Positions 26,142 to 54,752 of a stretch of 64,000 bases of DNA are shown here, piece by piece. A model generated the notes under the pieces. That model did not search any database. It worked only from the letters and a program-made list of their open reading frames with translations, and was not told the origin of the DNA. The translations under genes were made by a program, and so were the position numbers. Each line of letters starts with the position of its first letter. The first letter of the stretch is position 1. Origin of the DNA: Candidatus Obscuribacteraceae bacterium (lineage in GTDB: Bacteria > Cyanobacteriota > Vampirovibrionia > Obscuribacterales > Obscuribacteraceae); NCBI GenBank assembly GCA_044229845.1, contig JBGASG010000002.1:128001-192000 (forward strand), given 5' to 3'.

Positions 26142-26144
26142 CTG

Positions 26145-35857: not shown

Positions 35858-36204
35858 AAACAAAAACACCACCCGAACTGAATCGCGGTGGTGTTTTCGC
35901 TACTGTCTGACTGCCCGTTGCTCGGGCTCAGTATTTCCTCACGCTTCAGCCAGTCCTTCACGTGGGGCGAGCTCACATCAGCTGTCGTTCCCGGTCAGCG
36001 CTGACCTGACGTTTCCGCTTGGCTCCTCGGCTCGACGCGATTGCAATTTCAGTTCAACCGCTCACCTGATGCATTCAAGAATACAGGTCAGTTTCACGCC
36101 CGAGAAGTACCCCAGAGGACCTTTAATAATCAGCGTTTTGCGTATACAAAACCCGCATCAGAAGCTATGGACTAGCACCACATTTGGTTAAGAAGCGCTC
36201 GATC
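35858..36204 (-). ncRNA. Putative ~350-nt structured ncRNA, copy 1 of 9
   Basis: Conserved repeat; covarying stems; G-U pairs favour the minus strand; terminator hairpin 35867-35893 plus minus-strand U tract. Confidence 0.75.
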
Positions 36205-36357
36205 CACGCGCGCCCCAAAGGGCTCAGGCATTCCATATTCTTTATATATAGGTACGCAATCGAATCGATCGCCCGCCCCGCCCCAATTTATATAAACGCA
36301 TCGCCAATAAGCGACTGCAGGCTCTAAAATGAGACAGAACAAAGGATCGCCACTCCA

Positions 36358-38094
36358 TTGGATCGAGACCGCGACGAGCCCCTCATAAGCAACAGCCACC
36401 CGTCCGGAGTCCTGCGCGCCGGCTACATTCTGGGCGACCGCTACCGCATCGAAGGCTGCATCGGCGCCGGGGGCATGGGCGGCGTGTATAAAGCTACGCA
36501 CATCGAACTGCGGAATACGGTCGCCATCAAAGTAATGCATTCGCGTTTCTCGGTCGACCAGAATGCAGTGGCGCGCTTCCATCGAGAAGCCAAAATCATC
36601 TCCGGACTGCATCACAAAAACATTTTGTCGGTCTACTCGTTTGGAAGCGCCGACGGACTTCTCTATTTGGCGATGGAATTCATCGACGGTCGGTCGCTTG
36701 GAGATTTGATCAGAGAACAAAAACTGCGGTCACAGAAAAACAATGCCATTGCGATTCTTCTGCAAATCTGCGATGCAATGGCTTACGCACACCACCAACA
36801 CGTATTGCACCGCGATCTCAAGCCCGACAATGTACTGATTACCAAGGCCGATCAGACAGCCAAAGTGGTCGACTTCGGATTGGCAAAATTGACTGACGAA
36901 GAAATGCAGCGACTGACAAGCACCGGTCTGGTCGTGGGAGATCCGCGCTATATGAGTCCGGAGCAGTCTCAGGGAAAACCAGTTGACGGACGCTCGGACA
37001 TTTATTCCTTTGGATGTTTGATGTACGAGCTGCTTGCCGGCCGCTGCCCATTCGATGCCGATGCGCCCGTTGCGATTCTCTTCAAACAGATCTCGGAAAA
37101 TCCCGAACTATTTGCTGACGAAACCAACCTTTCGCGCTCACTGCAAGCCATAACGCTGCAGTGCATGCAAAAGGATCCTCAGTTGCGTTATCAATCGTTT
37201 GAAGAAATTGCCGTGCAGTTGCAAATACTCGCGAGCGATCCTGATGCGAAAGTGGAAGGGAGCCACAGCAAAGCTCGTGCTGGTGCTCAAAAACATCCGG
37301 CATCCCCACAAAAAAAACGATTGCTCGCCGTCTTTACCGGGGTGGTTATCACTACGCTTGCCGGTCTGTGTGTGCTGCTTCTCTTGACCCAGTCAAACTC
37401 AAACACGAACGCAACCGGTAAGGATCAGCAAACCGATCACGATCTGCGCCAAGTGCTGGAAAAACTCAAACGCTCATACCACGACGAAGCAAAGTACAAA
37501 AGGGAGTCGCTGGAAGCAGAAAGCATCGCGTCCCAAAATCCCGGCGCGGTCAGTCCTCTTTATCGGGGGCGACTTGATTACGTTCACGCCAGGGTGCTGC
37601 AAGTGGAGACGTATCGATCAAGACCAGTTGAGAAACAGCAGCCCGGCTGGGAACAGGCGCTTAGCTACAGTCGCAAGTCAGTAGTTGAACTAAAGAAGGC
37701 GCGAGCAGATGACGCTTCCTCCTACAGCACTCACACGCGCACGGCAACCGGCTTGCTGATGATGAAGGAAGAAGATCAATATTTCTTCGATTCGATTTTG
37801 CTTTGGCAAGCGATGGCGGAGAAGTGCAATCGGGCCAATGAAGTCGAATCCTCAATGAACGAGATAATGGACTTCTGCGAACGATTCAAAATCGAATCCG
37901 ACTCCGCACCACGCATGACTCCGCTGTGGCAGCTGAAGATCAGTCGCATCGTGCAGACCGGCGATCGGACTGCAGCAAAAACCATCGCCGAGCGCTATTT
38001 GCGGTGCCTGAGGAAACAAGGCTATAAAGCAAGCTTTATTGACGATCAGGTGCGCGCAGTCAGAGCATTGGCGGGAATCGACTTACCGAATTGA
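36358..38094 (+). CDS. Membrane Ser/Thr protein kinase 1 (TTG start)
   Basis: GAGGMG, VAIK, HRDLKPDN, DFG, GDPRYMSPEQ; TM; helical C-domain. Confidence 0.95.
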   Translation: MDRDRDEPLISNSHPSGVLRAGYILGDRYRIEGCIGAGGMGGVYKATHIELRNTVAIKVMHSRFSVDQNAVARFHREAKIISGLHHKNILSVYSFGSADGLLYLAMEFIDGRSLGDLIREQKLRSQKNNAIAILLQICDAMAYAHHQHVLHRDLKPDNVLITKADQTAKVVDFGLAKLTDEEMQRLTSTGLVVGDPRYMSPEQSQGKPVDGRSDIYSFGCLMYELLAGRCPFDADAPVAILFKQISENPELFADETNLSRSLQAITLQCMQKDPQLRYQSFEEIAVQLQILASDPDAKVEGSHSKARAGAQKHPASPQKKRLLAVFTGVVITTLAGLCVLLLLTQSNSNTNATGKDQQTDHDLRQVLEKLKRSYHDEAKYKRESLEAESIASQNPGAVSPLYRGRLDYVHARVLQVETYRSRPVEKQQPGWEQALSYSRKSVVELKKARADDASSYSTHTRTATGLLMMKEEDQYFFDSILLWQAMAEKCNRANEVESSMNEIMDFCERFKIESDSAPRMTPLWQLKISRIVQTGDRTAAKTIAERYLRCLRKQGYKASFIDDQVRAVRALAGIDLPN

Positions 38095-38095
38095 A

Positions 38096-38443
38096 AAACA
38101 AAAACACCACCCGAACTGAATCGCGGTGGTGTTCATGCTACTGCCTGACTGCCCGTTGCTCGGGCTCAGTATTTCCTCATGCTTCAGTCAGTCCTTCACA
38201 TGGGGCGAGCTCTCATCAGCTGTCGTTTCCGGTCAGCGCGGACCTGGTGTTTCTGCTTGGCTCCTCGGCTCGACGCGATTGCAACATCAGCTCAATCGCT
38301 CACCTGATGCATTCAAGAATACACGGCAGCTTCATACCGGAGAAGTACCCCAGAGGACCTTTAATGATCGGCGCTTCGCGTATACAGAACCCACACCAGG
38401 AGCTATAGACCGGCACCACATTCGGTTAAGAAGCGCTCGATCC
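38096..38443 (-). ncRNA. Putative structured ncRNA, copy 2
   Basis: Homologous to 35858-36204. Confidence 0.75.
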
Positions 38444-38604
38444 ACGCGCGCCCCAAAGGGTTCCGGCATTCCATATCGTTTATACAAGTACTTATATATA
38501 AACGCGACAGCGATCCGCCCTAAAGTCACCCGGTTCCATATAGACACATCGCTAACTATCAACCCGAGAGCGTAAAATGAGAAGGAACAAAGGAAGCATC
38601 GTAA

Positions 38605-40338
38605 TTGGATCAAGACCTCCCGAGCACCATACAATCCGGCACGATTCTCGACGGCAAGTACCGCATCGAAGGCTACATCGGCGCGGGCGGTATGGGTAGC
38701 GTCTACAAAGCGATACACGTGCAGCTCGGCAACCCGGTCGCCATCAAAATCATGCACCCGCGGTTTTCACTCGACACCAATTCGACAGCCAGGTTCCACA
38801 GAGAAGCGAAGATCATTTCCGGGCTGCATCACAAGAACATTCTGGCGGTCTATGCATTTGGTTCCAGCGACGGATCTCTATACATGGCAATGGAATTCGT
38901 TGATGGGCAGTCGCTAGGAGATCTGATCAGGGAGCGCGGACCGATGGCGCCGGAAAGTGCAGTACAAATACTCCTACAGATTTGCGAGGCGATGACCTAC
39001 GCGCACCGGCACAAAGTATTACATCGCGATTTAAAACCAGACAACGTACTTTTGGAGCGAGACACCGCGCTGGCAAAAGTCGTCGACTTCGGACTGGCTA
39101 AACTGACTGACGCGGAAACGCAACGACTGACGAGTACCGGCATGATCGTCGGTGACGCGCGCTACATGAGCCCCGAGCAATCGCAAGGCAAGCCGATCGA
39201 TCAACGTTCAGACGTGTACTCATTCGGCTGCCTGATGTATGAAACACTTGCGGGACGCTGCCCGTTTGAAGCAGATACGCCGGTTGCGGTTTTGTTCAAG
39301 CAAGTCTCAGAGGATCCGCAGCCCTTCGCCGCCGATTCGAATATCTCGCGTTCGCTGCAGGCAATTACACTCCAGGCAATGCAGAAGGAGCAACAACAGC
39401 GCTATCAATCGTTTGAAGAGATCGCCACACAATTGCAAAAACTCGTCGGCGATCCAAATGCAAAAGTCGACGGCAGTCACCGTAAAGCATTACCAAAATC
39501 GGCCGGCTCAGGCAGAATGAACAAAGCCACGGCGCTCACAGCGGTACTACTCCTCGCCCTGGCAGCAGTACTGGTGCAGCCGTTGCTGGCATTTTTTCTG
39601 CCGCGCGCGCTGGACAACGAGAACACAACCGGCAATCAGCAATCGAAGCGAACGGCAGAAATGCAAATAGCCAACTTGATACGACAACTAGTATTGCGCG
39701 GTCCTCGCGACGAGCAATTCAGCTCGCTTCTCAACGAAGCCGAATCAATTGCAAAGCAAAATCCTGACATCGACCTCGCGTTCAAGGGTCGTCTCAAATT
39801 TATGCACGGGCGATTAATCGAATCCCGCCACCTAGCAACACACGCCAAGCCAAATATCTTCAGCGATCTGAAGGCTCAAGATAAGCGCAACCTGCAGGAG
39901 GGGCTAAATTACAGCCGCATTGCGGTAAACGAATTACGACAGTCCATGACCGACGCGGAATCGCATCGTGTCTGGAAATCAGAAACCGCCAGTGGATTGA
40001 AACCTCTGCTCGTCGAAGAAATACACTTTCTCGAGTCGCTGGCGCTCTGGCGAGAGATGTCCATTCTGTGCGATTCGTTTTCGGAGATAGAAGCTGCTTC
40101 GGCCCAGATATTTCAAATCTCGGATAGATACAAAATCGACTACGCCAACGAAGCATTAGTGCGCTCTGCGTATGCCGAGTTGATCGAGTTTTACAGGCTT
40201 CGGCACAAGACGTCCGCTGCCGACATCTTGACGAAACGCTATCTGGACAATTTGAAACTGCAGGGCTGCGATCCGCTATTCATCGCCGATGAGCAAAAGC
40301 GGCTACAAACGCAAAAACAAAAACACCACCCGAACTGA
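38605..40338 (+). CDS. Membrane Ser/Thr protein kinase 2 (TTG start; ends KQKHHPN within the repeat)
   Basis: Hanks motifs, GDARYMSPEQ, TM. Confidence 0.95.
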   Translation: MDQDLPSTIQSGTILDGKYRIEGYIGAGGMGSVYKAIHVQLGNPVAIKIMHPRFSLDTNSTARFHREAKIISGLHHKNILAVYAFGSSDGSLYMAMEFVDGQSLGDLIRERGPMAPESAVQILLQICEAMTYAHRHKVLHRDLKPDNVLLERDTALAKVVDFGLAKLTDAETQRLTSTGMIVGDARYMSPEQSQGKPIDQRSDVYSFGCLMYETLAGRCPFEADTPVAVLFKQVSEDPQPFAADSNISRSLQAITLQAMQKEQQQRYQSFEEIATQLQKLVGDPNAKVDGSHRKALPKSAGSGRMNKATALTAVLLLALAAVLVQPLLAFFLPRALDNENTTGNQQSKRTAEMQIANLIRQLVLRGPRDEQFSSLLNEAESIAKQNPDIDLAFKGRLKFMHGRLIESRHLATHAKPNIFSDLKAQDKRNLQEGLNYSRIAVNELRQSMTDAESHRVWKSETASGLKPLLVEEIHFLESLALWREMSILCDSFSEIEAASAQIFQISDRYKIDYANEALVRSAYAELIEFYRLRHKTSAADILTKRYLDNLKLQGCDPLFIADEQKRLQTQKQKHHPN

Positions 40339-40661
40339 ATCGCGGTGGTGTTTATGCTACTGCCTGACTGCCCGTTGCTCGGGCTCAGTATCTCCTCACG
40401 CTTCAGCCAGTCCTTCACGTGGGGCGAGCTCACATCAGCTGTCGTTTCCGGTCAGCGCTGACCTGGTGTTTCCGCTTGGCTCCTCGGCTCGACGCGATTG
40501 CAATTTCAGTTCAATCGCTCACCTGATGCATTCAAGAATACACGGCAGTTTAGCGTACGAGAAGTACCCCAGAGGACCTTTAATGATCTACCTTACGCGT
40601 ACACGAACCCCGCACCAAAAGCTATTTCCTTGCACCACATTTGGTTATGAAGCGCTCGATC
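40315..40661 (-). ncRNA. Putative structured ncRNA, copy 3
   Basis: Homologous to copy 1. Confidence 0.75.
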
Positions 40662-40823
40662 TATGCGCGCCGCAATGAGTTCCGGCATTCAATATCGTTT
40701 ATACAGGTACTTATATATCGATGCGGCGAGAAACCCGCCCAGGGTCGCTCGATTCTATATAGGCGTATCGCCAACTATCGACCGGAGAGCGTAGAATGAG
40801 AAGGAACAAAGGATCGCCCAAGC

Positions 40824-42587
40824 TTGGATCACACAGACGAACAGCAACTTGCCTCGAATACGCAGTCGCTTGCGGGCGGCGGATTGTCCACAGGCACGAT
40901 TCTTGACGGCAAATTTCGCATTGGTAGCTATATCGGCGGTGGAGGCATGGGCGCAGTCTTTAGCGCCACTCATCTGAAGTTAGGAAATCAGGTAGCCATC
41001 AAAGTTCTGCACTCTCGATTTGCGGTCGATCAAAATGCGGTGGCACGGTTTCATCGCGAAGCAAAAATCATCGCCGGGCTGCACCACAAAAACATTCTTT
41101 CCGTCTACGCTTTCGGTTCAGCAGATGGGCTCTTGTACATGGCAATGGAGCTTGTCGACGGCAAGTCGCTTGGAGACCTGATCGCACAGCACGGATCGTA
41201 TTCACCGGAGCGAGCCATTCCCCTTCTTCTTCAGATTTGCGATGCCATGAGTTATGCGCACCAACAAAAAGTCTTGCATCGCGACTTGAAGCCGGACAAC
41301 GTGCTCGTAACCAATGCCGATGACACAGCAAAAGTCGTCGACTTCGGGCTGGCAAAACTTACTGATGCAGAGATGCAAAGACTGACCACCACCGGCATGG
41401 TGGTCGGCGATCCGCGCTACATGAGCCCGGAGCAATCACAAGGCAAGCCGGTCGATGCTCGCTCCGACATCTACTCTTTCGGTTGCTTGATGTATGAAAT
41501 GTTGGCCGGAAGGCGTCCGTTCGACGCTGATACACCGGTTGCAATTCTTTTCAAGCAGATCTCCGAATACCCCGAATCTTTTGCAGATCAGACCAACATT
41601 TCACTGTCGCTTCAGGCGATAGCGTTTCAGGCTCTGCAAAAAGATCCGCAGGCACGGTATCAATCAATTGACGACCTGTCCAGCCAACTGCTCAAGTTGT
41701 CGCGAAATCCAGATGCAAAAGTCGAAGGAGTACGCGCTGGTGGCACGCCTACCCAGTCGCGCAGCACAACCGGAAGTCGCGCAGCGCGCCAGCATGCACT
41801 AAAAATGCTGATCGGTGCATTGCTAGTTGTGGGAGCAATCACGGTCGGCATGGTCATCATTGGCACCAGCACTCGACTGAGCAACGAAGAAGGGCTGCGA
41901 GCAAGCACCCGGCACGAAGTCAGACTTGAGTTCGACTCGCTGATTTCCAACCAGGGCTTTGTCGGCGACCAGAACCCCACAGACGCTCTGGAGCGAGCGC
42001 AAATCCTAGTTGCCCAGTACCCAGAGGAATTCAATTCCAGCGATCGAGCGAAGCTTGATTTGGTACAGGCTCTGAATTTCGAGAGGCTGGGTCGTTATAG
42101 AGAACCAGACAAAATAAAACTCGCGCAGACGCATAACAAAGGGGCCATTTCTCAACTGGAGACTGCCCTCAAAGTACATTCCGACCATCGCCGCCAAAAC
42201 AACATGCCCACGACGGATGCCGGCATGGAACCCTGGAGTAGTGATTCACGTTATTTATTTGAAGCACTACTGCTCCAATCAAGGTTGGCCGATCGAACCG
42301 GCGACCTCAAAGAGATGCGGAGCGCCATAGACTCGCTCCTCTCATTCGCAGAAAAATACGAGTTACCCTACACCATAGACAGGCGCCTGCTAAGAGAGGC
42401 GTGCGAAAGGTTGATTATGGCTTACGGTCAAGCGAACGACAGGCAGGCAGCAGAACAAGTACTGCAGCGCTTTATGAATTGCCTGGCAACTCAAGGTGAC
42501 ATCACCGCATTTACCGATAACGATGAACGATTGCTGCGCGACACCATGGAAAAGGCCTTCGACAAACAAAAACACCACCCGAACTGA
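40824..42587 (+). CDS. Membrane Ser/Thr protein kinase 3 (TTG start; ends KQKHHPN)
   Basis: Hanks motifs, GDPRYMSPEQ, TM. Confidence 0.95.
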   Translation: MDHTDEQQLASNTQSLAGGGLSTGTILDGKFRIGSYIGGGGMGAVFSATHLKLGNQVAIKVLHSRFAVDQNAVARFHREAKIIAGLHHKNILSVYAFGSADGLLYMAMELVDGKSLGDLIAQHGSYSPERAIPLLLQICDAMSYAHQQKVLHRDLKPDNVLVTNADDTAKVVDFGLAKLTDAEMQRLTTTGMVVGDPRYMSPEQSQGKPVDARSDIYSFGCLMYEMLAGRRPFDADTPVAILFKQISEYPESFADQTNISLSLQAIAFQALQKDPQARYQSIDDLSSQLLKLSRNPDAKVEGVRAGGTPTQSRSTTGSRAARQHALKMLIGALLVVGAITVGMVIIGTSTRLSNEEGLRASTRHEVRLEFDSLISNQGFVGDQNPTDALERAQILVAQYPEEFNSSDRAKLDLVQALNFERLGRYREPDKIKLAQTHNKGAISQLETALKVHSDHRRQNNMPTTDAGMEPWSSDSRYLFEALLLQSRLADRTGDLKEMRSAIDSLLSFAEKYELPYTIDRRLLREACERLIMAYGQANDRQAAEQVLQRFMNCLATQGDITAFTDNDERLLRDTMEKAFDKQKHHPN

Positions 42588-42910
42588 ATCGCGGTGGTGT
42601 TAATGCTACTGCCTGACTGCCCGTTGCTCGGGCTCAGTATTTCCTCATGCTTCAGTCAGTCCTTCACATGGGGCGAGCTCACATCAGCTGTCGTTTCCGG
42701 TCAGCGCGGACCTGGTGTTTCTGCTTGGCTCCTCGGCTCGACGCGATTGCAACTTCAGTTCAATCGCTCACCTGATGCATTCAAGAATACACGCCAGGTT
42801 CGAGCCCGAGAAGTACCCCAGAAGACCTTTAATGATCTACATTACGCGTATACAAAAATGGCACCATTACTTATTCTCCGGCACCACATTCGGTTATTGA
42901 GAGCCGGATC
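42564..42910 (-). ncRNA. Putative structured ncRNA, copy 4
   Basis: Homologous to copy 1. Confidence 0.75.
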
Positions 42911-43063: not shown

Positions 43064-44851
43064 GTGGAATCCCAAGAAACAGCCGGCGCACTGCCCAACG
43101 GCACTGTCGTCGACGGCAAATTCGAAATCACCGGATTCATCGGCGCCGGCGGCATGGGCACCGTCTATCGCGCCCGCCACATTGAGCTGGGCAGCGCCGT
43201 GGCCCTCAAAACACTGCACCCGCGTTTTTCGGTGGACCAGGACGCGTCCGCTCGTTTTCGTCTCGAAGCCAAGATCATCGCCGGGCTGCACCACAAAAAC
43301 ATTCTGGCCGTGCACGCGTCCGGCTACAGCAACAACTTGCTCTACATGGCAATGGAATTGATCGAAGGAACTTCGCTGAGGGCAATGGTTGCAGAAGGCG
43401 GCTCCCTGAGCACCAGCGCAGCGTTGCCTCTTTTGATCCAGATTTGCGACGCGATGATTTATGCACATGCCAACAAGGTTTTGCATCGCGACTTAAAACC
43501 GGACAATGTATTGATCGAAACCAGGGGCACCGAGCGAACTGCCAAGGTCGTCGATTTCGGACTGGCTAAATTGACCGACATCGAAATGCAACGCTTGACA
43601 CAGACTGGGATGGTCGTCGGCGATCCGCATTTCATGAGCCCCGAGCAGGCTCAAGGCAGACAGGCGGATGAGAGGTCGGACATCTACTCATTCGGTTGCT
43701 TGATGTATGACGTGTTGTCAGGCAAGCCTCCCTTCGAGTCAGACTCCGATGTGGCGGTGCTCTTCAAGCAGGTCTCCGACGAACCACAACTCTTCGCAGA
43801 CGCGAAGGCGCCCGCGTGCTTGCGGTCGTGTCAATCGATTTGCTTTCAGGCGATGGAAAAGAATCCGGAGAGTCGATATCAGTCTTTTCAGGAAGTTCGC
43901 AATGAGTTGCAGAAACTTGCAGACAATCCCGATGCGAAGATTTCCGCCTCGTCAAGAATGGCTAAGGAGGCCGCAGCGGGACGAGGTCCCGGAGCGCACA
44001 AATTCCGTCGTTTGCCTGCAACAGTTGCCGCCGTTGCGTTGTTTGCGCTGCTTTGCTTCGCGGCTGCGAAGTTCTTGCACCAAGAAGATGCAGACACACC
44101 GACCGACAAAACCCCGTCGACTGCATCCCAACCCGACGTCGCTAAATTGAAGGAAGCGTACAAGAACCTCAGCGAACGCGATGCACGAGAGAGAGTCAAA
44201 GAATTGATTTCGGTGCTCCAGCGCGCACATCTTTCGGAGTCCGCACGAAAAGCGACTTTTGCAGAGCTGGACATTGCGGAATCGCGTATCGGTTTCGACC
44301 CATTGCAGAGCGGACGTGCCGAATACGAACGAGCGGCATCAATGATGCGCTCCGTAATGGAGCAACCGCAGAGGAATCTGACCATGGATACGGTCGAAGG
44401 TCGCGAAGCCATCGAGCATTGCCGCAAGGCGCTCGCTCACTACAATAAGATCATCTCGCTCTACCAGCGCAGACCAACAGTGAACGACGCAGAGCTGAGC
44501 GATATCAACGCCGCCTCCGTTGAACTGTACCGCACTTACTCTCTCCTGATTCAGATCGCGAATACATACAGTGACTACAAAACAGTGAAGAAGGCCGCGA
44601 AAGAGTGCGTTCGACTCTGCGAATACGCGAAAGTGCCGCCAGGCACTCTGGAAGCTTGCCAGACAGCATTCGACACACTGATCATGATCGACGTTCAAGA
44701 CGTTGATACTGAGGGCGCGCAGAGTATGTCGCAGCGCAAGTTGGCTTTTCTAAAATTGCAGGGCTTCGATGCCGATTCGCTGAAGGAAGAGAAAAGAAAC
44801 CTGACAATCAAGATGCGGGAATGGTCAAAACAAAAACACCACCCGAACTGA
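43064..44851 (+). CDS. Membrane Ser/Thr protein kinase 4 (GTG start; ends KQKHHPN)
   Basis: Hanks motifs, GDPHFMSPEQ, TM. Confidence 0.95.
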   Translation: MESQETAGALPNGTVVDGKFEITGFIGAGGMGTVYRARHIELGSAVALKTLHPRFSVDQDASARFRLEAKIIAGLHHKNILAVHASGYSNNLLYMAMELIEGTSLRAMVAEGGSLSTSAALPLLIQICDAMIYAHANKVLHRDLKPDNVLIETRGTERTAKVVDFGLAKLTDIEMQRLTQTGMVVGDPHFMSPEQAQGRQADERSDIYSFGCLMYDVLSGKPPFESDSDVAVLFKQVSDEPQLFADAKAPACLRSCQSICFQAMEKNPESRYQSFQEVRNELQKLADNPDAKISASSRMAKEAAAGRGPGAHKFRRLPATVAAVALFALLCFAAAKFLHQEDADTPTDKTPSTASQPDVAKLKEAYKNLSERDARERVKELISVLQRAHLSESARKATFAELDIAESRIGFDPLQSGRAEYERAASMMRSVMEQPQRNLTMDTVEGREAIEHCRKALAHYNKIISLYQRRPTVNDAELSDINAASVELYRTYSLLIQIANTYSDYKTVKKAAKECVRLCEYAKVPPGTLEACQTAFDTLIMIDVQDVDTEGAQSMSQRKLAFLKLQGFDADSLKEEKRNLTIKMREWSKQKHHPN

Positions 44852-47585: not shown

Positions 47586-49304
47586 GTGGAAGACAGCTCA
47601 TCCGACAAGCAACCTATCCTGCTAGAGCCAGACGAGATACTGGAAGACAAATATCGCGTCGTCCGCTTTCTCGGCCGCGGTGGCATGGGCAGCGTCCATG
47701 AGGCAATCCACACACACCTCGGCAACCGCGTTGCCATCAAGCTCTTGCATCCCCGTTTGTCAGGCGATGAAAAGCAGCTCGCCAGGTTTCAGCGTGAGGC
47801 GCACATCATTTCGGGGCTGCGACACAAGAACATCTTGTCGGTCTATGGCTTTCATCGCTGGCGCAACATGCCTTTTATGGCGATGGAGTTTATCGAAGGG
47901 GAATCGATCCGCGATCTACTGATAGAGCGGCAGGGCAATCTCTCAGCAACGGAGGCGCTGCCCCTGTTTCTGCAAATCTGCCAGGCTATGCAATTTGCTC
48001 ATAACAACAGCGTGCTGCATCGCGACCTCAAACCAGACAATGTGCTGGTTGTGAAGGAGAGCGACGGCTCACTGACGGCAAAAGTCGTTGACTTCGGACT
48101 GGCCAAACTGCAAGGGACCAACGAGATGCAGAAACTGACCAGCACCGGGCAGGTGGTCGGAGACCCGCATTATATGAGCCCCGAGCAATGCCAGGGCACG
48201 CAGCTCGATGCGCGCTCGGACATCTATTCATTCGGTTGCCTCATGTATGAAGTCTTGACGGGCGCGCGACCGTTCCTCGGCGATTCACCGGTTGCCACCA
48301 TGTATGAGCATCTGCAGAAAAACGCCAAGCCGTTTGCGAAACAATGCGGATTGCCGCTGGCAATCGAAGGCATCGTATTCAAGGCGATTGCCAAGGACCC
48401 TCGCCATCGCTACCAGTCTTTTGAAGAGCTGGCGGCTGACTTAGAAGAATTCTCCCGCAATCCGCAGATGCCGAGCATGCGTGCCGTGTCCGCCCCCACA
48501 GGTGGTGGCATGACTCCCGCAGCAAGAAGTGCCGTTTTGATCATCTTGCTCGGAGCGCTCATCTGCCTGCTTTATGTGTTCAGCCGCCCGCAGGCAGCAA
48601 CCGATCCTTACGCCAACATCTCCGACTCAGAGTTGCGAGCCCGCGCTGTTCCGGCATTGGCGAAGGCGCGCGATGCTTCGCGCAACCACGAGTTCGAGCA
48701 AGCTGATTCGTTTCTCGCCACAGTAGACGAACTGCGCAAACACCTGAACAACGACCCTTATCTCGAAGGGCGCATTGATTATCAACATGGCGAACAGTAT
48801 CTCGAAAGATTCAGAGTCACCCAAAACAAAGAGTTTGCCGCCTTAGCCAAACAATACTTGCTGAAGGCTGATGCCGACTTCAAAAGGGCCCGTGCGTCCT
48901 TATCGGCGACAAGCGGAAAGACTCAGCTGCACGACATCGAATGGCAGATGATCTCCAATCTGGACATGCTGCTCGCGGTCGGGCTGGAATCCTCCGGCTC
49001 CACAGCGGGTGACGAAGCATCGCAGCGACTGCTGGAAGAACTAGAACAAGCACCGCCACCACTGGAGTACATGCAGGGACATTCGGTGCAGAAGGCATTC
49101 AACTGGCTATTCACGCGCCGCATCAGCGAAGGGAAACCTGACGCGGCGGCGGCTCTACTGATACGCAAAATCGATTTTTCCTTACGGCAAGACTCCGATA
49201 CCGACTTTATTGCGCGGGAGAAAAAACGCATGCTGTCTGAAATCGCCGCCGTCGATCCCGTCCTGGCAAAACGGGTGCAGCAGCGGCTGGAAAAGCGCAA
49301 GTAA
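47586..49304 (+). CDS. Membrane Ser/Thr protein kinase 6 (GTG start)
   Basis: Hanks motifs, GDPHYMSPEQ, TM. Confidence 0.95.
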   Translation: MEDSSSDKQPILLEPDEILEDKYRVVRFLGRGGMGSVHEAIHTHLGNRVAIKLLHPRLSGDEKQLARFQREAHIISGLRHKNILSVYGFHRWRNMPFMAMEFIEGESIRDLLIERQGNLSATEALPLFLQICQAMQFAHNNSVLHRDLKPDNVLVVKESDGSLTAKVVDFGLAKLQGTNEMQKLTSTGQVVGDPHYMSPEQCQGTQLDARSDIYSFGCLMYEVLTGARPFLGDSPVATMYEHLQKNAKPFAKQCGLPLAIEGIVFKAIAKDPRHRYQSFEELAADLEEFSRNPQMPSMRAVSAPTGGGMTPAARSAVLIILLGALICLLYVFSRPQAATDPYANISDSELRARAVPALAKARDASRNHEFEQADSFLATVDELRKHLNNDPYLEGRIDYQHGEQYLERFRVTQNKEFAALAKQYLLKADADFKRARASLSATSGKTQLHDIEWQMISNLDMLLAVGLESSGSTAGDEASQRLLEELEQAPPPLEYMQGHSVQKAFNWLFTRRISEGKPDAAAALLIRKIDFSLRQDSDTDFIAREKKRMLSEIAAVDPVLAKRVQQRLEKRK

Positions 49305-49359
49305 CCGCGGCGACAGGCGGTAGCATATACTAGTTAGGACACCGAGCGTACCTAAACCA

Positions 49360-51270
49360 TTGGATCCGGACGAGACACCGAACGACCCGCAAAATTCCAA
49401 CCATGCGCCGTCACCGTCGCTGCAGCCGGGCGCGATCATCGATGAGAAGTACGAACTGAAAAAGTTCATCGGCATGGGAGGCATGGGCGCGGTCTACAGC
49501 GCGGTACACCGGCAACTGGGAACGGACGTCGCCATTAAGGTGCTGCATCCTCGCTTCGGCGTCGATCAAGAATCGGTGGCCAGGTTTCAGCGGGAAGCAC
49601 GCATCATAGCCTCATTGAGACACGCCAACATTCTCAGTGTGTACAGTTTCAATTCATGGCAGGGCATCTTTTACATCGCCATGGAATTGATCGAAGGCGA
49701 TTCGCTGGTGGCATACATTTTTGACGGCGACAGGCTGCGCAAGCCTGAGGATAAACTGCCTTTGCTCATACAAGCCTGCCGAGCAATGAGCTTCGCACAC
49801 AAGAACGGCGTGCTGCATCGCGACCTCAAACCCGACAACGTGCTGGTCGTGAACAACCCCGACGGCAGTCAATCAGCGAAAGTTGTCGACTTCGGATTGG
49901 CAAAACTGCAGGGTGCTTCCGACGTACAACAACTGACGCGCACCGGCGAAGTGTTCGGCGATCCCAATTACATGAGCCCCGAGCAATGCCAGGGCAAGCC
50001 ACTCGATGAACGCTCCGATATCTATTCATTTGGATGCCTCATGTATGAATTATTTTCCGGGGTGAGACCGTTTGAAGCCGACACACCGCTCGGCACTCTC
50101 TACAAACACTTGCAAGACAACCCGCAGCGCTTCGCCAAACAAGTGGGGATTTCCAGTGCGCTGGAAGAAATCATTTTTCGCGCCATGGAAAAATCGCGCG
50201 AACAACGCTACGAGTCATTCGACGAAATCGCCGCCGACCTGACCCGCTTCATCGATAACCCGCAATTGAAGGCGAGCAGCTCGGTGCCTCCGGGTGGTTT
50301 TTCAGGACGGCGCCCAGCCGTACGCAACACCGCATCTGATACCAGCGGCTCAGCGTGGCGCAAAGTTTCGTCGCGGGTGATGCTGATTGTTCTTTGCCTC
50401 TTGCCCGCAGTGACTGCCGCGGTTGTCCTGATGACTCGGCGCGATGCAGAAAATGATGGTGGTCATGGTACTAGCGATGATGGTCGACACGGATTCGTCA
50501 ACCTGTCCCAGCTCGAATTGCGCACGCGAGCACTTGAGCTTTGTTCGCGCACAGCGTTGCTCGTAGCCCGAGAACGTTTTCCAGAAACAGAGACCAACCT
50601 GGCTGAACTGGATCAGCTGCGCCTGCATCTGGAGCACCAGCCCTACGTCGAAGCTCAGATAGATTTTCTGCACGGGTGGTATCAGTTGCAGATGTATCGC
50701 CGGTTGAAAGTACCGGCAGACGGAAAGAACGGAGTGAATTACCTGCGACGCTCGCTGCAAGAATACGACCAGGCATACGCCGATGCCTCCGCCAATGGTG
50801 GCGAGGCTAGTAAAACACGACTGGATGAAATAGCCACTCACAAATTCGAAGCCGCCGATCAATTGCGCTATCTGGGACTCGCTTCTGATGATGCACAAGC
50901 CACACGCCAGGGAGCATTGGAAGTAATCAGGCTGGTCAGACACCTGCCCGATAAACCGGACTACGACCAGTTGAAGGCACTGCAGCAGTCGTACGACGTA
51001 CTGATTCAAATGAATGCCGCCAAAGGAAATTACGAGCGCGCACTGAAGCTGATGTGGCGCAAACTTACTTTTCTCGAACGACAAGGATGCGATCCGGCTT
51101 TCGTTGCCAGTGAACGCAAACGCCTGGAAGTTATGATCAACGAATTGGGCGGTGCCAAAGCGGTGACTCAACTGTCGCCGAAACTGGAAGCAGAGATTCG
51201 CAAGCAATCAGCTTTGCGACACGGCTCCGCGCCCAGTGCCGACCCCGGCATCGACGATATCGAGAAGTGA
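49360..51270 (+). CDS. Membrane Ser/Thr protein kinase 7 (TTG start; no repeat upstream)
   Basis: Hanks motifs, GDPNYMSPEQ, TM. Confidence 0.95.
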   Translation: MDPDETPNDPQNSNHAPSPSLQPGAIIDEKYELKKFIGMGGMGAVYSAVHRQLGTDVAIKVLHPRFGVDQESVARFQREARIIASLRHANILSVYSFNSWQGIFYIAMELIEGDSLVAYIFDGDRLRKPEDKLPLLIQACRAMSFAHKNGVLHRDLKPDNVLVVNNPDGSQSAKVVDFGLAKLQGASDVQQLTRTGEVFGDPNYMSPEQCQGKPLDERSDIYSFGCLMYELFSGVRPFEADTPLGTLYKHLQDNPQRFAKQVGISSALEEIIFRAMEKSREQRYESFDEIAADLTRFIDNPQLKASSSVPPGGFSGRRPAVRNTASDTSGSAWRKVSSRVMLIVLCLLPAVTAAVVLMTRRDAENDGGHGTSDDGRHGFVNLSQLELRTRALELCSRTALLVARERFPETETNLAELDQLRLHLEHQPYVEAQIDFLHGWYQLQMYRRLKVPADGKNGVNYLRRSLQEYDQAYADASANGGEASKTRLDEIATHKFEAADQLRYLGLASDDAQATRQGALEVIRLVRHLPDKPDYDQLKALQQSYDVLIQMNAAKGNYERALKLMWRKLTFLERQGCDPAFVASERKRLEVMINELGGAKAVTQLSPKLEAEIRKQSALRHGSAPSADPGIDDIEK

Positions 51271-51280
51271 AAACGCGCAC

Positions 51281-51629
51281 AAACAAAAACACCACCCGAA
51301 CTGAATCGCGGTGGTGATCATGCTACTGCCTGACTGCCCGTTGCTCGGGCTCAGTATTTCCAAACGCTTCAGTCAGTCCGTCACGTAAGGCGAGCTCACA
51401 ACAGCTGTCGTTCCCGGTCAGCGCTGACCTGATGTTTCCGCTTGGCTCCTCGGCTCGAAGCAATTGCATTTCTCAATCAATTGCTCACCGGTTATGCATA
51501 TAAGAATAGCAAGCTTTCGCAGACCCGACCACTACCCCAAATGACCTTTAATGATCTAATTTTCGCGTATACGAAAGGCGCATCAACACCTATTCTTTGA
51601 CACCACATATGGTTTTTAAGCGCTCGGCC
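51281..51629 (-). ncRNA. Putative structured ncRNA, copy 7
   Basis: Homologous to copy 1; second subtype with compensatory changes. Confidence 0.75.
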
Positions 51630-51781: not shown

Positions 51782-53130
51782 TTGGACCACGACGAAACGG
51801 CAATCGACAACGCGCGACTATCAACCGGAACCGTCGGACAACGTCATCGTTGTGAAGAGCGAAGAAAAGCTTTCGACAGCAACGGTGAAAGTGGTCGATT
51901 TTGGATTAGCCAAGTTGCAAGGCGACAACGACATGCAGCGGCTGACCAGAACCGGCGAAGTCTTCGGCGACCCAAGCTACATGAGCCCAGAAGCCGTTTC
52001 CTGCCGACAATCCAGTCGCCATCTTGATGAAACAGGTTTCGCAAGAACCACCTCCGCTGCCTCAACAGCTGGCGGTGCCGCCCGCGATCGAGGCGATTAT
52101 CTGGCGCGCCATGCAGAAAGACCCGGCTGAGCGGTACGACTCATTCGATGCAATCGCAGCAGAGCTGCGCAACTATGCCGACAATCCCGAGGCGGGAAGC
52201 CGCGCGCGACTGCCGGCGCGCAGCATCGGCGGACAGGCAGGGAAGAAGGGCAAGCAACGATTGCTTGTGACTGGAGCAATCGCGGTCGGTGTTTTTATTG
52301 CCGCGGCGGGGATGTACCTGGCATCAACCAACACACACAACACCGCGACTACAGCCTGCGAGCCATACGAACACCTGTCGCCGAACGAACTGCGACAGCG
52401 CGCCTACGCCCTCATGACGTCGGCATCCGATGCCGCCAAGCTCGGGCAGTATGAGGACGCCAACAAAACGCTGGCTGAGTTGCAGAGATTGCGACGTTAT
52501 CTGGTCACTGACGAAGATACGCAGGGGCACATCGACTACAACATCGCCTTCGTAGCGATGGCCGAAGGAGACAACAATTCCAAAGCACTGCAGCGCAAAG
52601 CCCTCGACTACTATTGCAGTTCAGCCGAACATCTCAAGAAAGCGCGCACCGCGATTTTGTCCAGCAGTCAGCCGCTGTCCAGCTTGCAACTTTTGAAAAT
52701 CGAGGAAGGATTGATCCTGTCCCTCGATGGCGAGCGGCGGGTGGCGGGATATCTGCAAGACAAAACCGCCGCCGATCGCGCCTGTCGCGAGACGCTTGAT
52801 TTTTGCGAAGGCAAATCCGCACCGATTGATAAAGGCAGGAGTCACTCTGCGCAAGCCAGTTTCGACTGGCTGTTCTCTCGAGCTATCCAGACGAAACGCC
52901 TGAAGCGCGCCTACAAACTGATGAAGCGGAAGATAGCGTTTCTTGAGATGCAGAAAGTCGATCCTGGTTTCTTGCAAGAAGCGCGAACCAGCATGGAACA
53001 TCAACTGGTTGAAGCAGCCGCGAATCAGCAAGGCAAGCGTTTCTCCAAATTTGAAGATGCCGAAGATGCGACGGATGCAGAAGATGCGACGGATGCAGAA
53101 GATGCGACGGATGCAGAAGATGCGCAGTGA
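51782..53130 (+). pseudogene. Kinase 8 with two internal deletions/frameshifts; TM and C-domain remain an intact ORF (52024-53130)
   Basis: LDHDETA..LSTGTV joins directly to DNVIVVK..DFG..GDPSYMSPE, which joins directly to KPFPADNPVAILMKQ, in three frames. Confidence 0.85.
53052..53124 (+). repeat. Coding 18-bp tandem repeat (EDATDA)
   Basis: GAAGATGCGACGGATGCA x3 plus partial copies. Confidence 0.9.
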
Positions 53131-53134
53131 ACAC

Positions 53135-53483
53135 AAACAAAAACACCACCCGAACTGAATCGCGGTGGTGTTTAAGCTACTGCCTGACTGCCCGTTGCTC
53201 GGGCTCAGTATTTCCAAACGCTTCAGTCAGTCCGTCACGTAAGGCGAGCTCACAACAGCTGGTGTTTCCGGTCAGCGCTGACCTGATGTTTCCGCTTGGC
53301 TCCTCGGCTCGAAGCAATTGCATTTCTCAATCAATTGCTCACCGGTTATGCATATAAGAATAGCAAGTAATTCCGAGGCGTGCCACTACCCCAATGGACC
53401 TTTAATGATCTAATTTCCGCGTATACGGAAGGCGCATCAACACTTATTGTTTGGCACCACATGTGGTTACTAAGCGCTTGAAC
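53135..53483 (-). ncRNA. Putative structured ncRNA, copy 8
   Basis: Homologous to copy 7. Confidence 0.75.
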
Positions 53484-53647
53484 CATTTGCGGCACAACGC
53501 GATCGACAAACGCATATTCGATCCATATATCATCCGAGAGGGGATCTGAGATCAGGGTTTACCCGGGAAACTCGACAGTACTCGACCGGCTACCCGAAAC
53601 CGGCGCCGGACGTACGATAGAAGTGCCCGCCCAACTTGGCAACGCCC

Positions 53648-54403
53648 ATGAAGACATCCCTGACGTTCAGCATCGCCCTCAGTTTTTTGCTATCAGCGAC
53701 ACTCGGCTGGACCGCTGCGGAGGCAGCTCCTGAGAAGGAGAAGCAGCAGCCCGGCAAACTGATTCCGCTGTCCGCGACCTTCGACAGCAGCAGAACTCTG
53801 CAGGGGCATCTGGAAGTTAAGGGCAATCGCGTGGCGCTGAGATCGCGTACAGCCAGGCGCTCCGGTAACCTGGCCGCCGTGTCCCCCTCGCGCCGACGCA
53901 TGTCGGGGCGGGCTACCCTTGCCGCACGACGGCGTGCGTTATCGGCGATAACTGCGTCGTCCGCCGAATCCGGGTTCAAGCTGGCGGTGGCGACGAGTTC
54001 GCCGCGCCCCAAACTGTCCGCTGCCGCCGCGCCTAAACTGGCAATGGCAGTGCCGGCTCAGCAGCTGCAAACCCGGGTTTCGAAATCGCACGTCCAGACC
54101 GCGGCAGCGGCTCAGGAAGATGCGGATTGCACCTGCCACGAAGCACGCAAACTCGTGGACCAGAAACGCTACAGCGAGGCAGCCATAGCCTACGAAAAAT
54201 ACGCGGACAAGCTGCTGAAGACCTTCAACAAGGAAAACGGCGACTACGCCAGCGCGCTCACCTGGCAGGGCTACAGCCTGGAGATGCAGGGTCGCAAGAA
54301 GGAAGCTCGCAAAATATTGGAGAAGGCAGCGGCTGTCTATCGCACCGCCGATCCTGAAGACGAGACCCTCGAATGGATCGAAGATCGGCTGGCAGAGCTG
54401 TAA
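53648..54403 (+). CDS. Secreted protein with C-terminal TPR-like helices
   Basis: Signal peptide MKTSLTFSIALSFLLSA...; YASALTWQG...GRKKEA. Confidence 0.75.
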   Translation: MKTSLTFSIALSFLLSATLGWTAAEAAPEKEKQQPGKLIPLSATFDSSRTLQGHLEVKGNRVALRSRTARRSGNLAAVSPSRRRMSGRATLAARRRALSAITASSAESGFKLAVATSSPRPKLSAAAAPKLAMAVPAQQLQTRVSKSHVQTAAAAQEDADCTCHEARKLVDQKRYSEAAIAYEKYADKLLKTFNKENGDYASALTWQGYSLEMQGRKKEARKILEKAAAVYRTADPEDETLEWIEDRLAEL

Positions 54404-54752
54404 AAACAAAAACACCACCCGAACTGAATCGCGGTGGTGTTCATGCTACTGCCTGACTGCCCGTTGCTCGGGCTCAGTATTTCCAAACGCTTCAGTCAGT
54501 CCGTCACGTAAGGCGAGCTCGCGATAGCTGTAGTTTCCGGTCAGCGCTGACCTGATGTTTCCGCTCGGCTCCTCGGCTCAAAGGCGTCGCATTTCTCAAT
54601 CGACGACTCACCGTTGATGAAAGTAAGAATAGCGCGGATCTCGAGGTTCGACCACTACCCCAAATGACCTTTAATGATCTTCGTTTTGCGTATACAAAAG
54701 CGGCATAAACACTTATGTCTTGGCACCACATTTGGTTACTAAGCGCTTGAAC
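54404..54752 (-). ncRNA. Putative structured ncRNA, copy 9 (most divergent)
   Basis: Homologous to copies 7-8; compensatory CGTCG/CGACG stem. Confidence 0.75.

What the first reader, a model, noticed from the sequence alone, without database searches (positions are those of the whole stretch)
35858..54752. Array of nine ~350-nt structured RNA-like elements alternating with receptor-like Ser/Thr kinase genes
Seen: nine homologous non-coding elements start at about 35858, 38096, 40315, 42564, 44828, 47088, 51281, 53135 and 54404. They bracket seven intact kinases, a kinase pseudogene and a TPR-like gene. Each element is far better conserved than the kinase C-domains, and each is convergent with the preceding gene (copies 2-9) and divergent from the next. 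Inference: this is a [minus-strand ncRNA + kinase] module amplified in tandem, in which the RNA may be a partner, antitoxin-like regulator or scaffold for diversified membrane sensor kinases. I do not recognise the RNA as any family I know. This is the best candidate for an undescribed system in the window.
Basis: partly seen in the sequence, partly recalled or inferred. Interest (0 to 1): 0.95.

Follow-up and report, generated by a model that had tools for sequence, protein, structure and literature searches.

The report
Tandem poplar-1 RNA genes between kinases
The nine repeats are genes for an already catalogued but functionally unexplained small RNA called poplar-1, copied many times together with neighbouring kinase genes in one group of non-photosynthetic relatives of cyanobacteria, so the RNA is real and abundant but neither new nor tied to the kinases.

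Summary
Nine homologous elements lie at the stated starts. They bracket seven intact Ser/Thr kinases, one truncated kinase and a weak TPR-like gene.

The RNA is not unknown. All nine match Rfam RF03041, poplar-1, on the minus strand at 131.7-137.2 bits against a cut-off of 110.5.

The transcribed unit is about 210 nt, not 350. It comprises a 5' hairpin, the 141-nt Rfam core with a pseudoknot, and an intrinsic terminator; 49 of 52 pairs show compensatory changes. The remaining ~150 nt is a conserved upstream region with a -10-like box and a TTAAA-N8-GGGGTAC motif.

Contigs from four sludge or wastewater RNA libraries cover only 35862-36077. Summed depth there reaches about 8e5, against 2-5 on the adjacent gene.

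Poplar-1 was found in 35 of 39 other genomes of the order, whose related records are titled Candidatus Obscuribacterales. It was found in 0 of 21 and 0 of 150 genomes outside it.

Only 4 of 108 copies in other genera adjoin a kinase.

The kinase-RNA array is genus-specific and predates the split of two species. It keeps every RNA copy while kinases decay.

Function remains unknown. This scan had already found poplar-1 on other DNA.

The parts
35858..36072 (-). poplar-1 RNA gene, copy 1: 5' hairpin P0, Rfam core 35896-36036, and terminator hairpin with U-tract at 35858-35895
   Evidence: cmscan 137.2 bits; nhmmer core 35858-36066; RNA-library contigs cover 35862-36077 only; pair counts
36078..36126 (-). 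Conserved upstream (promoter-like) region of copy 1: -10-like TATTCT 36078-36083, GGGGTAC 36107-36113, TTAAA 36122-36126. The same layout occurs at all nine copies
   Evidence: The full motif occurs 9 times in the 5.16-Mb genome, all in the array. No RNA-library contig lies here, which is only a weak hint
38096..38310 (-). poplar-1 RNA gene, copy 2
   Evidence: cmscan 131.7 bits; nhmmer
40315..40529 (-). poplar-1 RNA gene, copy 3
   Evidence: cmscan 137.0 bits; nhmmer
42564..42778 (-). poplar-1 RNA gene, copy 4
   Evidence: cmscan 131.9 bits; nhmmer
44828..45042 (-). poplar-1 RNA gene, copy 5
   Evidence: cmscan 135.1 bits; nhmmer
47088..47302 (-). poplar-1 RNA gene, copy 6
   Evidence: cmscan 136.8 bits; nhmmer
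51281..51495 (-). poplar-1 RNA gene, copy 7
   Evidence: cmscan 133.9 bits; nhmmer
53135..53349 (-). poplar-1 RNA gene, copy 8
   Evidence: cmscan 135.4 bits; nhmmer
54404..54618 (-). poplar-1 RNA gene, copy 9
   Evidence: cmscan 135.2 bits; nhmmer
34531..35820 (-). M16 peptidase gene directly downstream of copy 1 on the same strand. This is the recurrent, probably ancestral, position of a poplar-1 gene
   Evidence: Pfam PF00675 and PF05193. The same RNA-then-M16 arrangement occurs in 7 other genomes
36358..38094 (+). Ser/Thr kinase 1: kinase domain, membrane helix, helical C-domain
   Evidence: Pkinase 1.3e-53
38605..40338 (+). Ser/Thr kinase 2. Its last codons (KQKHHPN, stop) lie inside the terminator of RNA copy 3
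   Evidence: Pkinase 1.3e-54
40824..42587 (+). Ser/Thr kinase 3. Its end overlaps the terminator of copy 4
   Evidence: Pkinase 3.2e-54; C-part model pLDDT 82.7, all-helical
43064..44851 (+). Ser/Thr kinase 4. Its end overlaps the terminator of copy 5
   Evidence: Pkinase 2.2e-49
45330..47111 (+). Ser/Thr kinase 5. Its end overlaps the terminator of copy 6
   Evidence: Pkinase 1.5e-50
47586..49304 (+). Ser/Thr kinase 6. No RNA gene follows it
   Evidence: Pkinase 6.3e-49
49360..51270 (+). Ser/Thr kinase 7
   Evidence: Pkinase 8.7e-46
51813..53130 (+). Kinase remnant (pseudogene). It lacks about the first 150 residues of the kinase domain and has a frameshift near 51991. The C-domain ORF 52024-53130 is still open
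   Evidence: tblastn with kinase 7; no Pfam hit for 52024-53130
53636..54403 (+). Small gene with weak TPR matches, all below Pfam cut-offs. It is not related to the kinase C-domain profile

Best explanation
Each element is a self-contained gene for the poplar-1 RNA (Rfam RF03041).

Anatomy. Each has a conserved upstream region with a -10-like TAnnnT box and a TTAAA-N8-GGGGTAC motif. This is followed by a transcript of about 210 nt: a 5' hairpin P0, a three-part helix P1 with a symmetrical GGAAAC/GGAAAC internal loop, hairpin P2, hairpin P3, and a pseudoknot between the P2 loop and the P3 internal loop. The unit ends in a strong intrinsic terminator.

Distribution and origin. Poplar-1 is a lineage-specific, multi-copy, very abundant RNA of Candidatus Obscuribacterales. 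It stands free among unrelated genes and so acts in trans. In this genus a segment holding one RNA gene and one membrane Ser/Thr kinase gene was duplicated in tandem next to the ancestral RNA-then-M16-peptidase locus. Selection has since kept every RNA copy, a gene-dosage effect, while the kinases diverged or decayed. The kinases are co-amplified neighbours, not partners.

Shown: family identity, structure, taxonomic range, copy-by-copy orthology, lack of a kinase association, and presence at very high depth in RNA libraries.

Inferred: the start site near 36070, the promoter role of the upstream motif, and action in trans.

Guess, about 45%: the RNA works as the RNA part of a ribonucleoprotein, or as a protein-titrating RNA, rather than by base-pairing with mRNAs.
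For: - Family identity: 9 of 9 copies score above the Rfam cut-off, with full-length model matches 1-141.
- Structure: on 89 sequences less than 92% identical to one another, 95.8% of cells pair. Column shuffles give 83.3% and slid partners give 35-38%. 49 of 52 pairs have changes on both sides. P0 covaries in 7 of 7 pairs, the pseudoknot's five-pair main helix in 5 of 5 (its sixth pair also changes on both sides), and the terminator in 11 of 11.
- Upstream region: TAnnnT is in register in 118 of 120 copies, and GGGGTA lies 47-49 nt upstream of the core in 99 of 120. The full motif occurs 9 times in the own genome, and all 9 are in the array.
- Expression: contigs of 4 RNA libraries from 4 studies cover 35862-36077 only. 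Summed depth reaches about 8e5, against 2-5 on the M16 gene and 0 over 36078-36500.
- Genome distribution: the own genome has 9 hits, all in the array.
- Range: found in 32 of 36 genomes of the family and 3 of 3 of the sister family, in 0 of 21 other genomes of the class, and in 0 of 150 in the phylum sample.
- Neighbours: functionally unrelated to one another. A kinase is adjacent to 4 of 108 copies in other genera, while 15 of 658 ORFs in those loci are kinases. 41 of 108 copies have another copy within 2.5 kb.
- Ancestral locus: the M16 peptidase lies downstream on the same strand in 7 other genomes.
- Array age: 8 of 9 window copies pair one-to-one with copies of the second species.
- Kinase decay: in that species three kinase remnants and one frameshifted kinase lie between RNA copies, all 12 of which are intact.
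Against: - The RNA data are assembled contigs from mixed communities. They give no strand, no true ends and no per-organism level, and the depths sum over all poplar-1 variants in the sample. The start site and the untranscribed status of 36078-36300 are therefore not shown, and a longer processed precursor is not excluded.
- Within this genus the RNA-kinase alternation has persisted since before the split of the two species, so a local functional link cannot be excluded.
- Four kinase genes end inside the RNA terminator, which could allow convergent interference.
- No protein partner, target or ligand was identified, so the ribonucleoprotein reading rests only on the ornate conserved fold and the high abundance.
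- Neighbouring ORFs in relatives were called with my own crude ORF caller.
Confidence: 0.72

Rival explanations
1. RNA-kinase module. Each poplar-1 copy is a dedicated partner of the adjacent sensor kinase, acting as regulator, antitoxin-like element or scaffold, and the pair is the selected unit.
For: Alternation of RNA genes and kinases over 19 kb. The arrangement is kept in two species. The two units are divergent across a shared 280-nt intergenic region, and their 3' ends are convergent and overlapping.
Against: Only 4 of 108 copies in other genera adjoin a kinase, which is background level. There is no RNA gene between kinases 6 and 7. Intact RNA copies flank decayed kinases here and in the second species. 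Two kinases with the same C-domain elsewhere in the genome lack the RNA. The RNA sequence is near-constant while the kinase sensor parts share only 28% identity, so there is no copy-specific co-variation.
Confidence: 0.1
2. Trans-acting base-pairing small RNA family in many paralogous copies, like the Qrr RNAs or the NsiR1 tandem array of Nostoc (both recalled from memory). The invariant single-stranded stretch between P0 and P1 (UUGAGCCGAGG) would serve as the seed.
For: Free-standing genes with their own terminator, multi-copy and often in tandem. An 11-nt unpaired stretch is almost invariant in 89 sequences.
Against: Conservation is not limited to one seed. Nearly all loops and internal loops are conserved, and a pseudoknot locks the fold, which is unusual for seed-type small RNAs. 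No target search was made.
Confidence: 0.2
3. Cis-regulatory leader, riboswitch-like or attenuator-like, that controls the gene downstream on the same strand. The original case would be the M16 peptidase.
For: A structured domain followed at once by a terminator. The M16 peptidase lies 38-208 nt downstream on the same strand in 7 other genomes and here. From memory, the original description left cis versus trans open.
Against: The downstream neighbour is on the opposite strand for 43 of 103 copies in other genera, and for all of copies 2-9 here. The downstream genes are functionally unrelated to one another. No alternative anti-terminator pairing was seen. RNA-library depth drops from about 1e5-1e6 on the RNA to 2-5 on the M16 gene.
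Confidence: 0.05
4. Non-autonomous mobile repeat (MITE-like or REP-like) that has spread between genes.
For: Multi-copy, and often found at contig ends in fragmented assemblies.
Against: No terminal inverted repeats or target duplications appear in the 9-way alignment. The copies hold orthologous positions in two species. Base pairs covary as in an RNA. Each copy has a promoter-like box and a terminator. All own-genome copies sit in one array rather than being dispersed.
Confidence: 0.02

Closest known systems
poplar-1 RNA motif (Rfam RF03041; family attributed from memory to Weinberg et al. 2017, NAR 45:10811, PMC5737381)
   Same: All nine copies match the whole 141-position model above the curated cut-off. 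As I recall the original description, copies tend to lie in tandem and are not consistently upstream of genes. Both points hold here: 41 of 108 copies are clustered, and orientations are mixed.
   Different: The unit seen here is longer than the Rfam model. It has a covarying 5' hairpin, a covarying pseudoknot, a terminator and a conserved upstream motif. I could not check whether the original drawing already shows these. The main text has no 'poplar' and the supplement could not be read. The alternation with kinases is special to this genus.
Tandem arrays of small-RNA genes such as NsiR1 of Nostoc/Anabaena, or multi-copy RsmX/Qrr RNAs (recalled, not tested)
   Same: Repeated units, each with its own promoter and terminator, which raises RNA dosage.
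   Different: Those are short seed-pairing or CsrA-binding RNAs. Poplar-1 is about 210 nt with a pseudoknotted fold, and CsrA was not found in this genome, in 33 of 36 genomes of the family or in any of the 3 genomes of the sister family. Here protein genes are interleaved.
Abundant housekeeping-type structured RNAs (6S RNA, RNase P RNA, tmRNA)
   Same: High depth in RNA libraries. A preprint lists poplar-1 next to 6S among RNAs enriched in the intracellular RNA of drinking water (10.1101/2025.10.18.683149; passage read).
   Different: Restricted to one order and multi-copy. It is not a 6S substitute: full-length but weak 6S-like matches co-occur with poplar-1 in 21 of 36 genomes of the family and 3 of 3 of the sister family.
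Bacterial eukaryote-like membrane Ser/Thr kinases (PknB-type layout) with a TPR-like extracytoplasmic domain
   Same: N-terminal Pkinase domain, one predicted helix, then an all-helical repeat domain.
   Different: The C-domain has no Pfam match and only weak fold matches to TPR proteins, with E at least 1.3e-3 and TM 0.45-0.5. It has no PASTA domains.

Membership tests
poplar-1 RNA (Rfam RF03041) | Score at or above the curated gathering threshold (110.5 bits) of the covariance model, over the full model | tested here: met
   9 of 9 copies score 131.7-137.2 bits over model positions 1-141
poplar-1 RNA (Rfam RF03041) | The three helices of the consensus structure are kept through compensatory changes | tested here: met
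   Helices 2-5 and 8-10 are 94-100% paired with changes on both sides. The single exception is one loop-closing pair of P3 at 58%
poplar-1 RNA (Rfam RF03041) | Occurrence in the same lineage or habitat as the seed sequences (from memory, metagenomes of decaying poplar wood chips, with no classified organism) | not testable with these tools
   The seed sources could not be read. Here the family maps to genomes whose related records are titled Candidatus Obscuribacterales, Obscuribacteraceae or Melainabacteria
Riboswitch / cis-regulatory leader | Consistently upstream of, and on the same strand as, a functionally coherent set of genes | tested here: not met
   The downstream neighbour is on the opposite strand for 43 of 103 copies, and the neighbouring gene families are unrelated to one another
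CsrB/RsmZ-type CsrA-titrating RNA | A CsrA protein is present in genomes that carry the RNA | tested here: not met
   PF02599 was not found in the own genome (88% complete). It was found in 3 of 36 genomes of the family and 0 of 3 of the sister family
Type III toxin-antitoxin or other RNA-antitoxin module with the kinase as toxin | The RNA and the protein gene co-occur as a pair wherever either is found | tested here: not met
   4 of 108 RNA copies in other genera adjoin a kinase. Two kinases of the same subfamily lack the RNA. Kinases decay beside intact RNA genes
Hanks-type Ser/Thr protein kinases (Pfam PF00069) | Pkinase domain above the Pfam gathering score | tested here: met
   7 of 7 intact genes score 157-186 bits against a cut-off of 31.7

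The most novel reading that the evidence does not exclude
Poplar-1 is the RNA core of an undescribed, order-specific and very abundant ribonucleoprotein, or a catalytic or ligand-binding RNA, of the non-photosynthetic cyanobacterial relatives Obscuribacterales. It is driven by a dedicated promoter element (TTAAA-N8-GGGGTAC) that occurs nowhere else in the genome. In this genus the shared divergent control regions would make each diversified sensor kinase rise and fall with the RNA, so that the array is a co-regulated signalling and RNA-dosage unit rather than an accident of duplication.
Probability: 0.1. Interest if true: 0.7.

Novelty: new member of a known kind. Interest (0 to 1): 0.35.

Why it matters
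Poplar-1 is one of many orphan structured RNAs known only as an alignment. This window and its relatives add several things.

- A host lineage: Candidatus Obscuribacterales, common in activated sludge.
- A full gene model with upstream motif, 5' hairpin, pseudoknot and terminator.
- A taxonomic range limited to one order among the genomes searched.
- Evidence that it is among the most abundant RNAs in some wastewater RNA libraries.

Together these make its function testable by pull-down, probing, or expression across sludge process cycles.

For the kinase array the lesson is negative. Interleaving with a conserved RNA gene can arise from segmental duplication and does not by itself indicate a functional pair.

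Tried and rejected
1. CsrA-sponge idea. It was prompted by five GGA motifs per RNA. CsrA was not found in the own genome, and only in 3 of 36 and 0 of 3 genomes of the two families that carry the RNA. Rejected.

2. 6S substitute. Weak full-length 6S-like matches co-occur with poplar-1 in 21 of 36 and 3 of 3 genomes; none was found in the own genome. Rejected.

3. NtcA-type promoter. The GTc-N8-TAC-N22-TAnnnT spacing fits the cyanobacterial NtcA layout as I recall it. However, the strongest conservation (TTAAA, GGGG) lies outside the NtcA half-sites. The best NtcA-model match in the genome scores 96.7 bits against a cut-off of 244.95, so it is only a generic CRP/FNR-type protein. Not supported.

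4. Small ORF inside the element. Stop-to-stop frames on both strands look conserved only because the DNA is conserved. The best minus-strand frame is cut by a stop in copy 1, loop lengths differ by 1-2 nt between copies, and pairs covary. Rejected.

5. A 350-nt RNA. Sequence similarity to other genera by blastn stops at the 176 nt of core plus terminator in 20 of 21 relatives' copies. The alignment adds only the P0 hairpin and short upstream motifs.

6. RNA-library cover. No contig lies on 35808-35861 or on 36078-36500. For contigs, absence of cover is not evidence of no transcription.

7. The simple terminator scan did not list the poplar-1 terminators because their stem has a bulge. They are supported by covariation instead.

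8. Literature. Searches for 'poplar-1' with 'RNA motif' gave 0 papers, 'poplar-1' gave 1 paper, 'RF03041' gave 0, and Obscuribacter with RNA terms gave none holding both among the 12 listed.

9. Fold of the kinase C-domain. Only weak TPR-like matches.

Full report
OBSERVATION

The repeat finder returns one family of nine direct repeats, starting at 35858, 38096, 40315, 42564, 44828, 47088, 51281, 53135 and 54404.

A nine-way alignment shows a block of about 390 well-conserved columns. It begins with an A-rich run and a G+C-rich hairpin.

Pfam finds a protein kinase domain in seven intact genes between the repeats. The ORF 52024-53130 has no Pfam hit. With the stretch before it, it aligns to kinase 7 from residue 154 onward in two frames, so it is a 5'-truncated, frameshifted kinase remnant. 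The gene 53636-54403 has only sub-threshold TPR matches.

There is no repeat between kinases 6 and 7.

Pairwise identity between copies:
- RNA gene: median 91% nucleotide identity.
- Next 180 nt: 70%.
- Kinase domains: 63% at the nucleotide level and 56% at the protein level.
- Kinase C-terminal parts: 28% amino-acid identity.

WHAT THE ELEMENT IS

A scan of the whole window against Rfam 15 at gathering thresholds gives nine hits to RF03041, poplar-1. All are on the minus strand, cover the full 141-position model, and score 131.7-137.2 bits against a cut-off of 110.5.

Directly 3' of the motif on the minus strand lies a hairpin followed by UUUUUGUUU.

I aligned copies from 20 other genomes. 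A further covarying hairpin, P0, lies 5' of the Rfam model. A TAnnnT box sits about 12 nt before P0, and short conserved motifs lie further upstream. Sequence similarity to other genera stops there.

STRUCTURE

I fetched 80 context loci around poplar-1 hits in about 30 related genomes and located 120 copies. I aligned three window copies with 86 representatives that are less than 92% identical to one another.

On that alignment, the structure transferred from window copy 1 gives the following:
- 95.8% of cells paired, against 83.3% in column shuffles and 35-38% when partners are slid.
- Changes on both sides in 49 of 52 pairs.
- P0 covaries in 7 of 7 pairs.
- The terminator covaries in 11 of 11 pairs.
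- The pseudoknot between the P2 loop (CUGRCU) and the internal loop of P3 (AGYCAG) covaries in all 5 pairs of its main helix (its sixth pair also changes on both sides). At one position the pairs are A-U 44, G-C 23 and G-U 12.

Loop lengths differ by one or two bases between copies. The only plausible minus-strand frame is stopped in copy 1. The element is therefore an RNA, not a small protein gene.

UPSTREAM REGION

Across 120 copies:
- TAnnnT lies in register in 118.
- GGGGTA lies 47-49 nt before the core in 99.
- T[TA]AA[AC] lies 12-13 nt before that.

In the window all nine copies have TTAAAGGTC-N4-GGGGTA(C/G)-N22/23-TA(T/A)TCT. A pattern search of the whole 5.16-Mb genome finds this layout nine times, all in the array.

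I read this as a dedicated promoter with a start near 36070 for copy 1. That is inference; a processed longer precursor is not excluded.

The spacing resembles NtcA-type promoters as I recall them. However, the conserved letters are not the NtcA half-sites, and no NtcA orthologue was found.

EXPRESSION

Seventeen of the 24 listed runs are on record as RNA. All listed RNA runs hold about 0.11-0.21 of the sampled words of the 801-nt stretch 35700-36500.

I laid the contigs of four of these RNA runs, from four studies. They cover only 35862-36077. Summed word depth reaches about 8e5 in two runs, 2e4 in a third and 2e2 in the fourth. Depth is 2-5 on the neighbouring M16 peptidase gene in three of the runs (0 in the fourth) and zero on 36078-36500. 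One 153-nt contig matches 35909-36061 with a single difference.

These are contigs from mixed communities. They show presence in RNA libraries far above the flanks, which argues against DNA carry-over. They do not show strand, true ends or per-organism level. The stop of cover at about 36077 in several studies is only a weak hint for the 5' end.

A preprint lists poplar-1 with 6S among RNAs enriched in the intracellular RNA of drinking water (10.1101/2025.10.18.683149; one passage read).

WHERE IT OCCURS

The window's own genome has 22 contigs and is 88% complete. It has nine hits, all in this array.

Among 60 relatives, poplar-1 is found in:
- 32 of 36 genomes of the same family, with 1-12 matches each.
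- 3 of 3 genomes of a second family of the order, all three just below the cut-off.
- 0 of 21 genomes of other families of the class.

In an even sample of the phylum it is found in 0 of 150 other genomes from 29 families. These are 'not found in those searched', not proofs of absence.

Related loci fetched with kinase 3 carry record titles such as Candidatus Obscuribacterales, Candidatus Obscuribacteraceae and Candidatus Melainabacteria, which names the lineage.

Many hits lie at contig ends, so copy numbers are lower bounds.

IS IT TIED TO KINASES?

I called neighbours with a simple ORF caller and a kinase profile built from the window's seven kinases.
- In the second species of the genus, 7 of 12 copies adjoin a kinase-domain ORF.
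- In all other genera, 4 of 108 copies do (three kinase genes). In the same loci 15 of 658 ORFs are kinases.
- The own genome has 117 ORFs with a kinase domain, so this is background.

The other neighbours are functionally unrelated to one another: UbiD, a PLP enzyme, dUTPase, M20 and M23 peptidases, a histidine kinase, ZIP and AI-2E transporters, TPR proteins and others.

The upstream neighbour is a median 285 nt away and the downstream one 82 nt away. Orientation is mixed: downstream, 60 on the same strand and 43 on the opposite. This fits a free-standing gene that needs about 200 nt of upstream sequence.

41 of 108 copies have another copy within 2.5 kb, so tandem clustering is a family trait.

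The one recurrent neighbour is an M16 peptidase immediately downstream on the same strand, in 7 other genomes. This is exactly the position of window copy 1. I take it as the ancestral locus from which the array grew.

HISTORY OF THE ARRAY

I built a tree of the nine window copies and the twelve copies of the second species, using the RNA gene plus 200 nt upstream.
- 8 of 9 window copies pair one-to-one with a copy of the other species, at branch lengths of 0-0.03.
- Paralogues are separated by about 0.1.
- The array therefore predates the split and has not been homogenised.
- The other species has re-duplicated three units.

In that species kinases 7, 5, 2 and 4 are intact, kinase 6 has a frameshift, and three further kinases survive only as remnants. 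All twelve RNA copies score 164-202 bits with my profile. In the window too, copies 7-9 flank a kinase remnant and a small unrelated gene.

Two kinases with the same C-terminal domain lie on other contigs, where no poplar-1 was found.

The kinase C-part is modelled as one long helix, read as a membrane helix, followed by an all-helical repeat domain (pLDDT 82.7). It has only weak TPR-like matches in the PDB. If it is outside the cytoplasm, it cannot meet the RNA.

Taken together, selection acts on each RNA copy independently of its kinase.

HOW IT PROBABLY WORKS

Shown: a compact pseudoknotted RNA of about 210 nt that is multi-copy, lineage-restricted and very abundant in RNA libraries, with its own terminator.

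Inferred: its own promoter, and action in trans, because the genes around it differ from copy to copy.

My committed guess, about 45%, is an RNA that works with protein, either as a ribonucleoprotein core or as a titrating RNA. The reasons are that conservation covers nearly all loops, that P1 holds a two-fold symmetrical GGAAAC/GGAAAC internal loop, and that three UGAGCC motifs recur. These features were read from the alignment and not tested.

A seed-pairing small RNA gets about 20% and a cis-acting leader about 5%.

Tested and dropped: a CsrA sponge and a 6S substitute.

Four kinase genes end (KQKHHPN, stop) inside the RNA terminator. This is most simply a by-product of where the duplication unit begins, though convergent interference is possible.

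COMPARISON AND NOVELTY

The family is known: Rfam RF03041. From memory it was described among the 224 motifs of Weinberg et al. 2017, found in poplar wood-chip metagenomes with no host, often in tandem, with cis versus trans unresolved. I could not verify these details. The paper's main text does not contain 'poplar' and its supplement could not be read.

Full-text searches found one paper that mentions poplar-1 and none with RF03041.

Two earlier follow-ups of this scan reached the same identification on other genomes.

New here, as far as I can see, are the host order, the extended gene model, the abundance and the genus-specific interleaving with kinases. I class it as a new member of a known kind, of moderate interest mainly because an abundant orphan RNA is now easier to test.

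Noticed in passing
window 25905-26366 (+): Tight cluster of tRNA genes. ARAGORN calls four tRNA-Leu genes with four different anticodons (taa, cag, caa, gag) within 316 nt. Rfam also lists a fifth tRNA-like hit at 26281-26366 that ARAGORN did not call.
   Followed up: no
window 38605-47111 (+): ends of kinases 2-5: Four kinase ORFs end with the same seven residues, KQKHHPN. These are encoded by the A-run and the 5' arm of the convergent poplar-1 terminator, so the gene and the RNA overlap by about 23 nt tail to tail. The same overlap (d = -23) is seen in the second species.
   Followed up: partly
L030, and hits at contig ends in G015, G022 and G025: A 2,282-nt contig of another Obscuribacterales assembly is 100% identical to kinase 3 and is about one repeat unit long. 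Many poplar-1 hits in relatives sit within about 30-100 nt of contig ends. The repeated RNA gene evidently breaks short-read assemblies, so copy numbers are underestimates.
   Followed up: no
own genome (G000), all contigs: About 117 ORFs with a Ser/Thr kinase domain in 5.16 Mb, or one per 44 kb. This is a very large kinase complement for a bacterium.
   Followed up: no
window 36300-36330 and 40767-40797 (+): A conserved sigma-70-like box (TCGCCA-18-TAAAAT/TAGAAT) and a purine-rich leader lie about 30-60 nt before kinase starts. This is the likely kinase promoter, divergent from the RNA promoter (family D10, 50).
   Followed up: no
L119 (G006:C1:2647150-2649153): Four poplar-1 genes lie head to tail with 490-870 nt spacing and no protein gene between them. 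This is a pure RNA-gene array, unlike the interleaved one here.
   Followed up: partly
about 125-135 nt upstream of the RNA core in relatives and in the window (e.g. window about 36190-36200): A further motif, (C)GCTTGTTAA(C/T), recurs in about half of the copies (53-56 of 120) at a fixed distance. Its role is unknown.
   Followed up: no
window 55471-55542 (+): A tRNA-Thr(cgt) gene lies just beyond the DUF1232 gene that ends the array.
   Followed up: no
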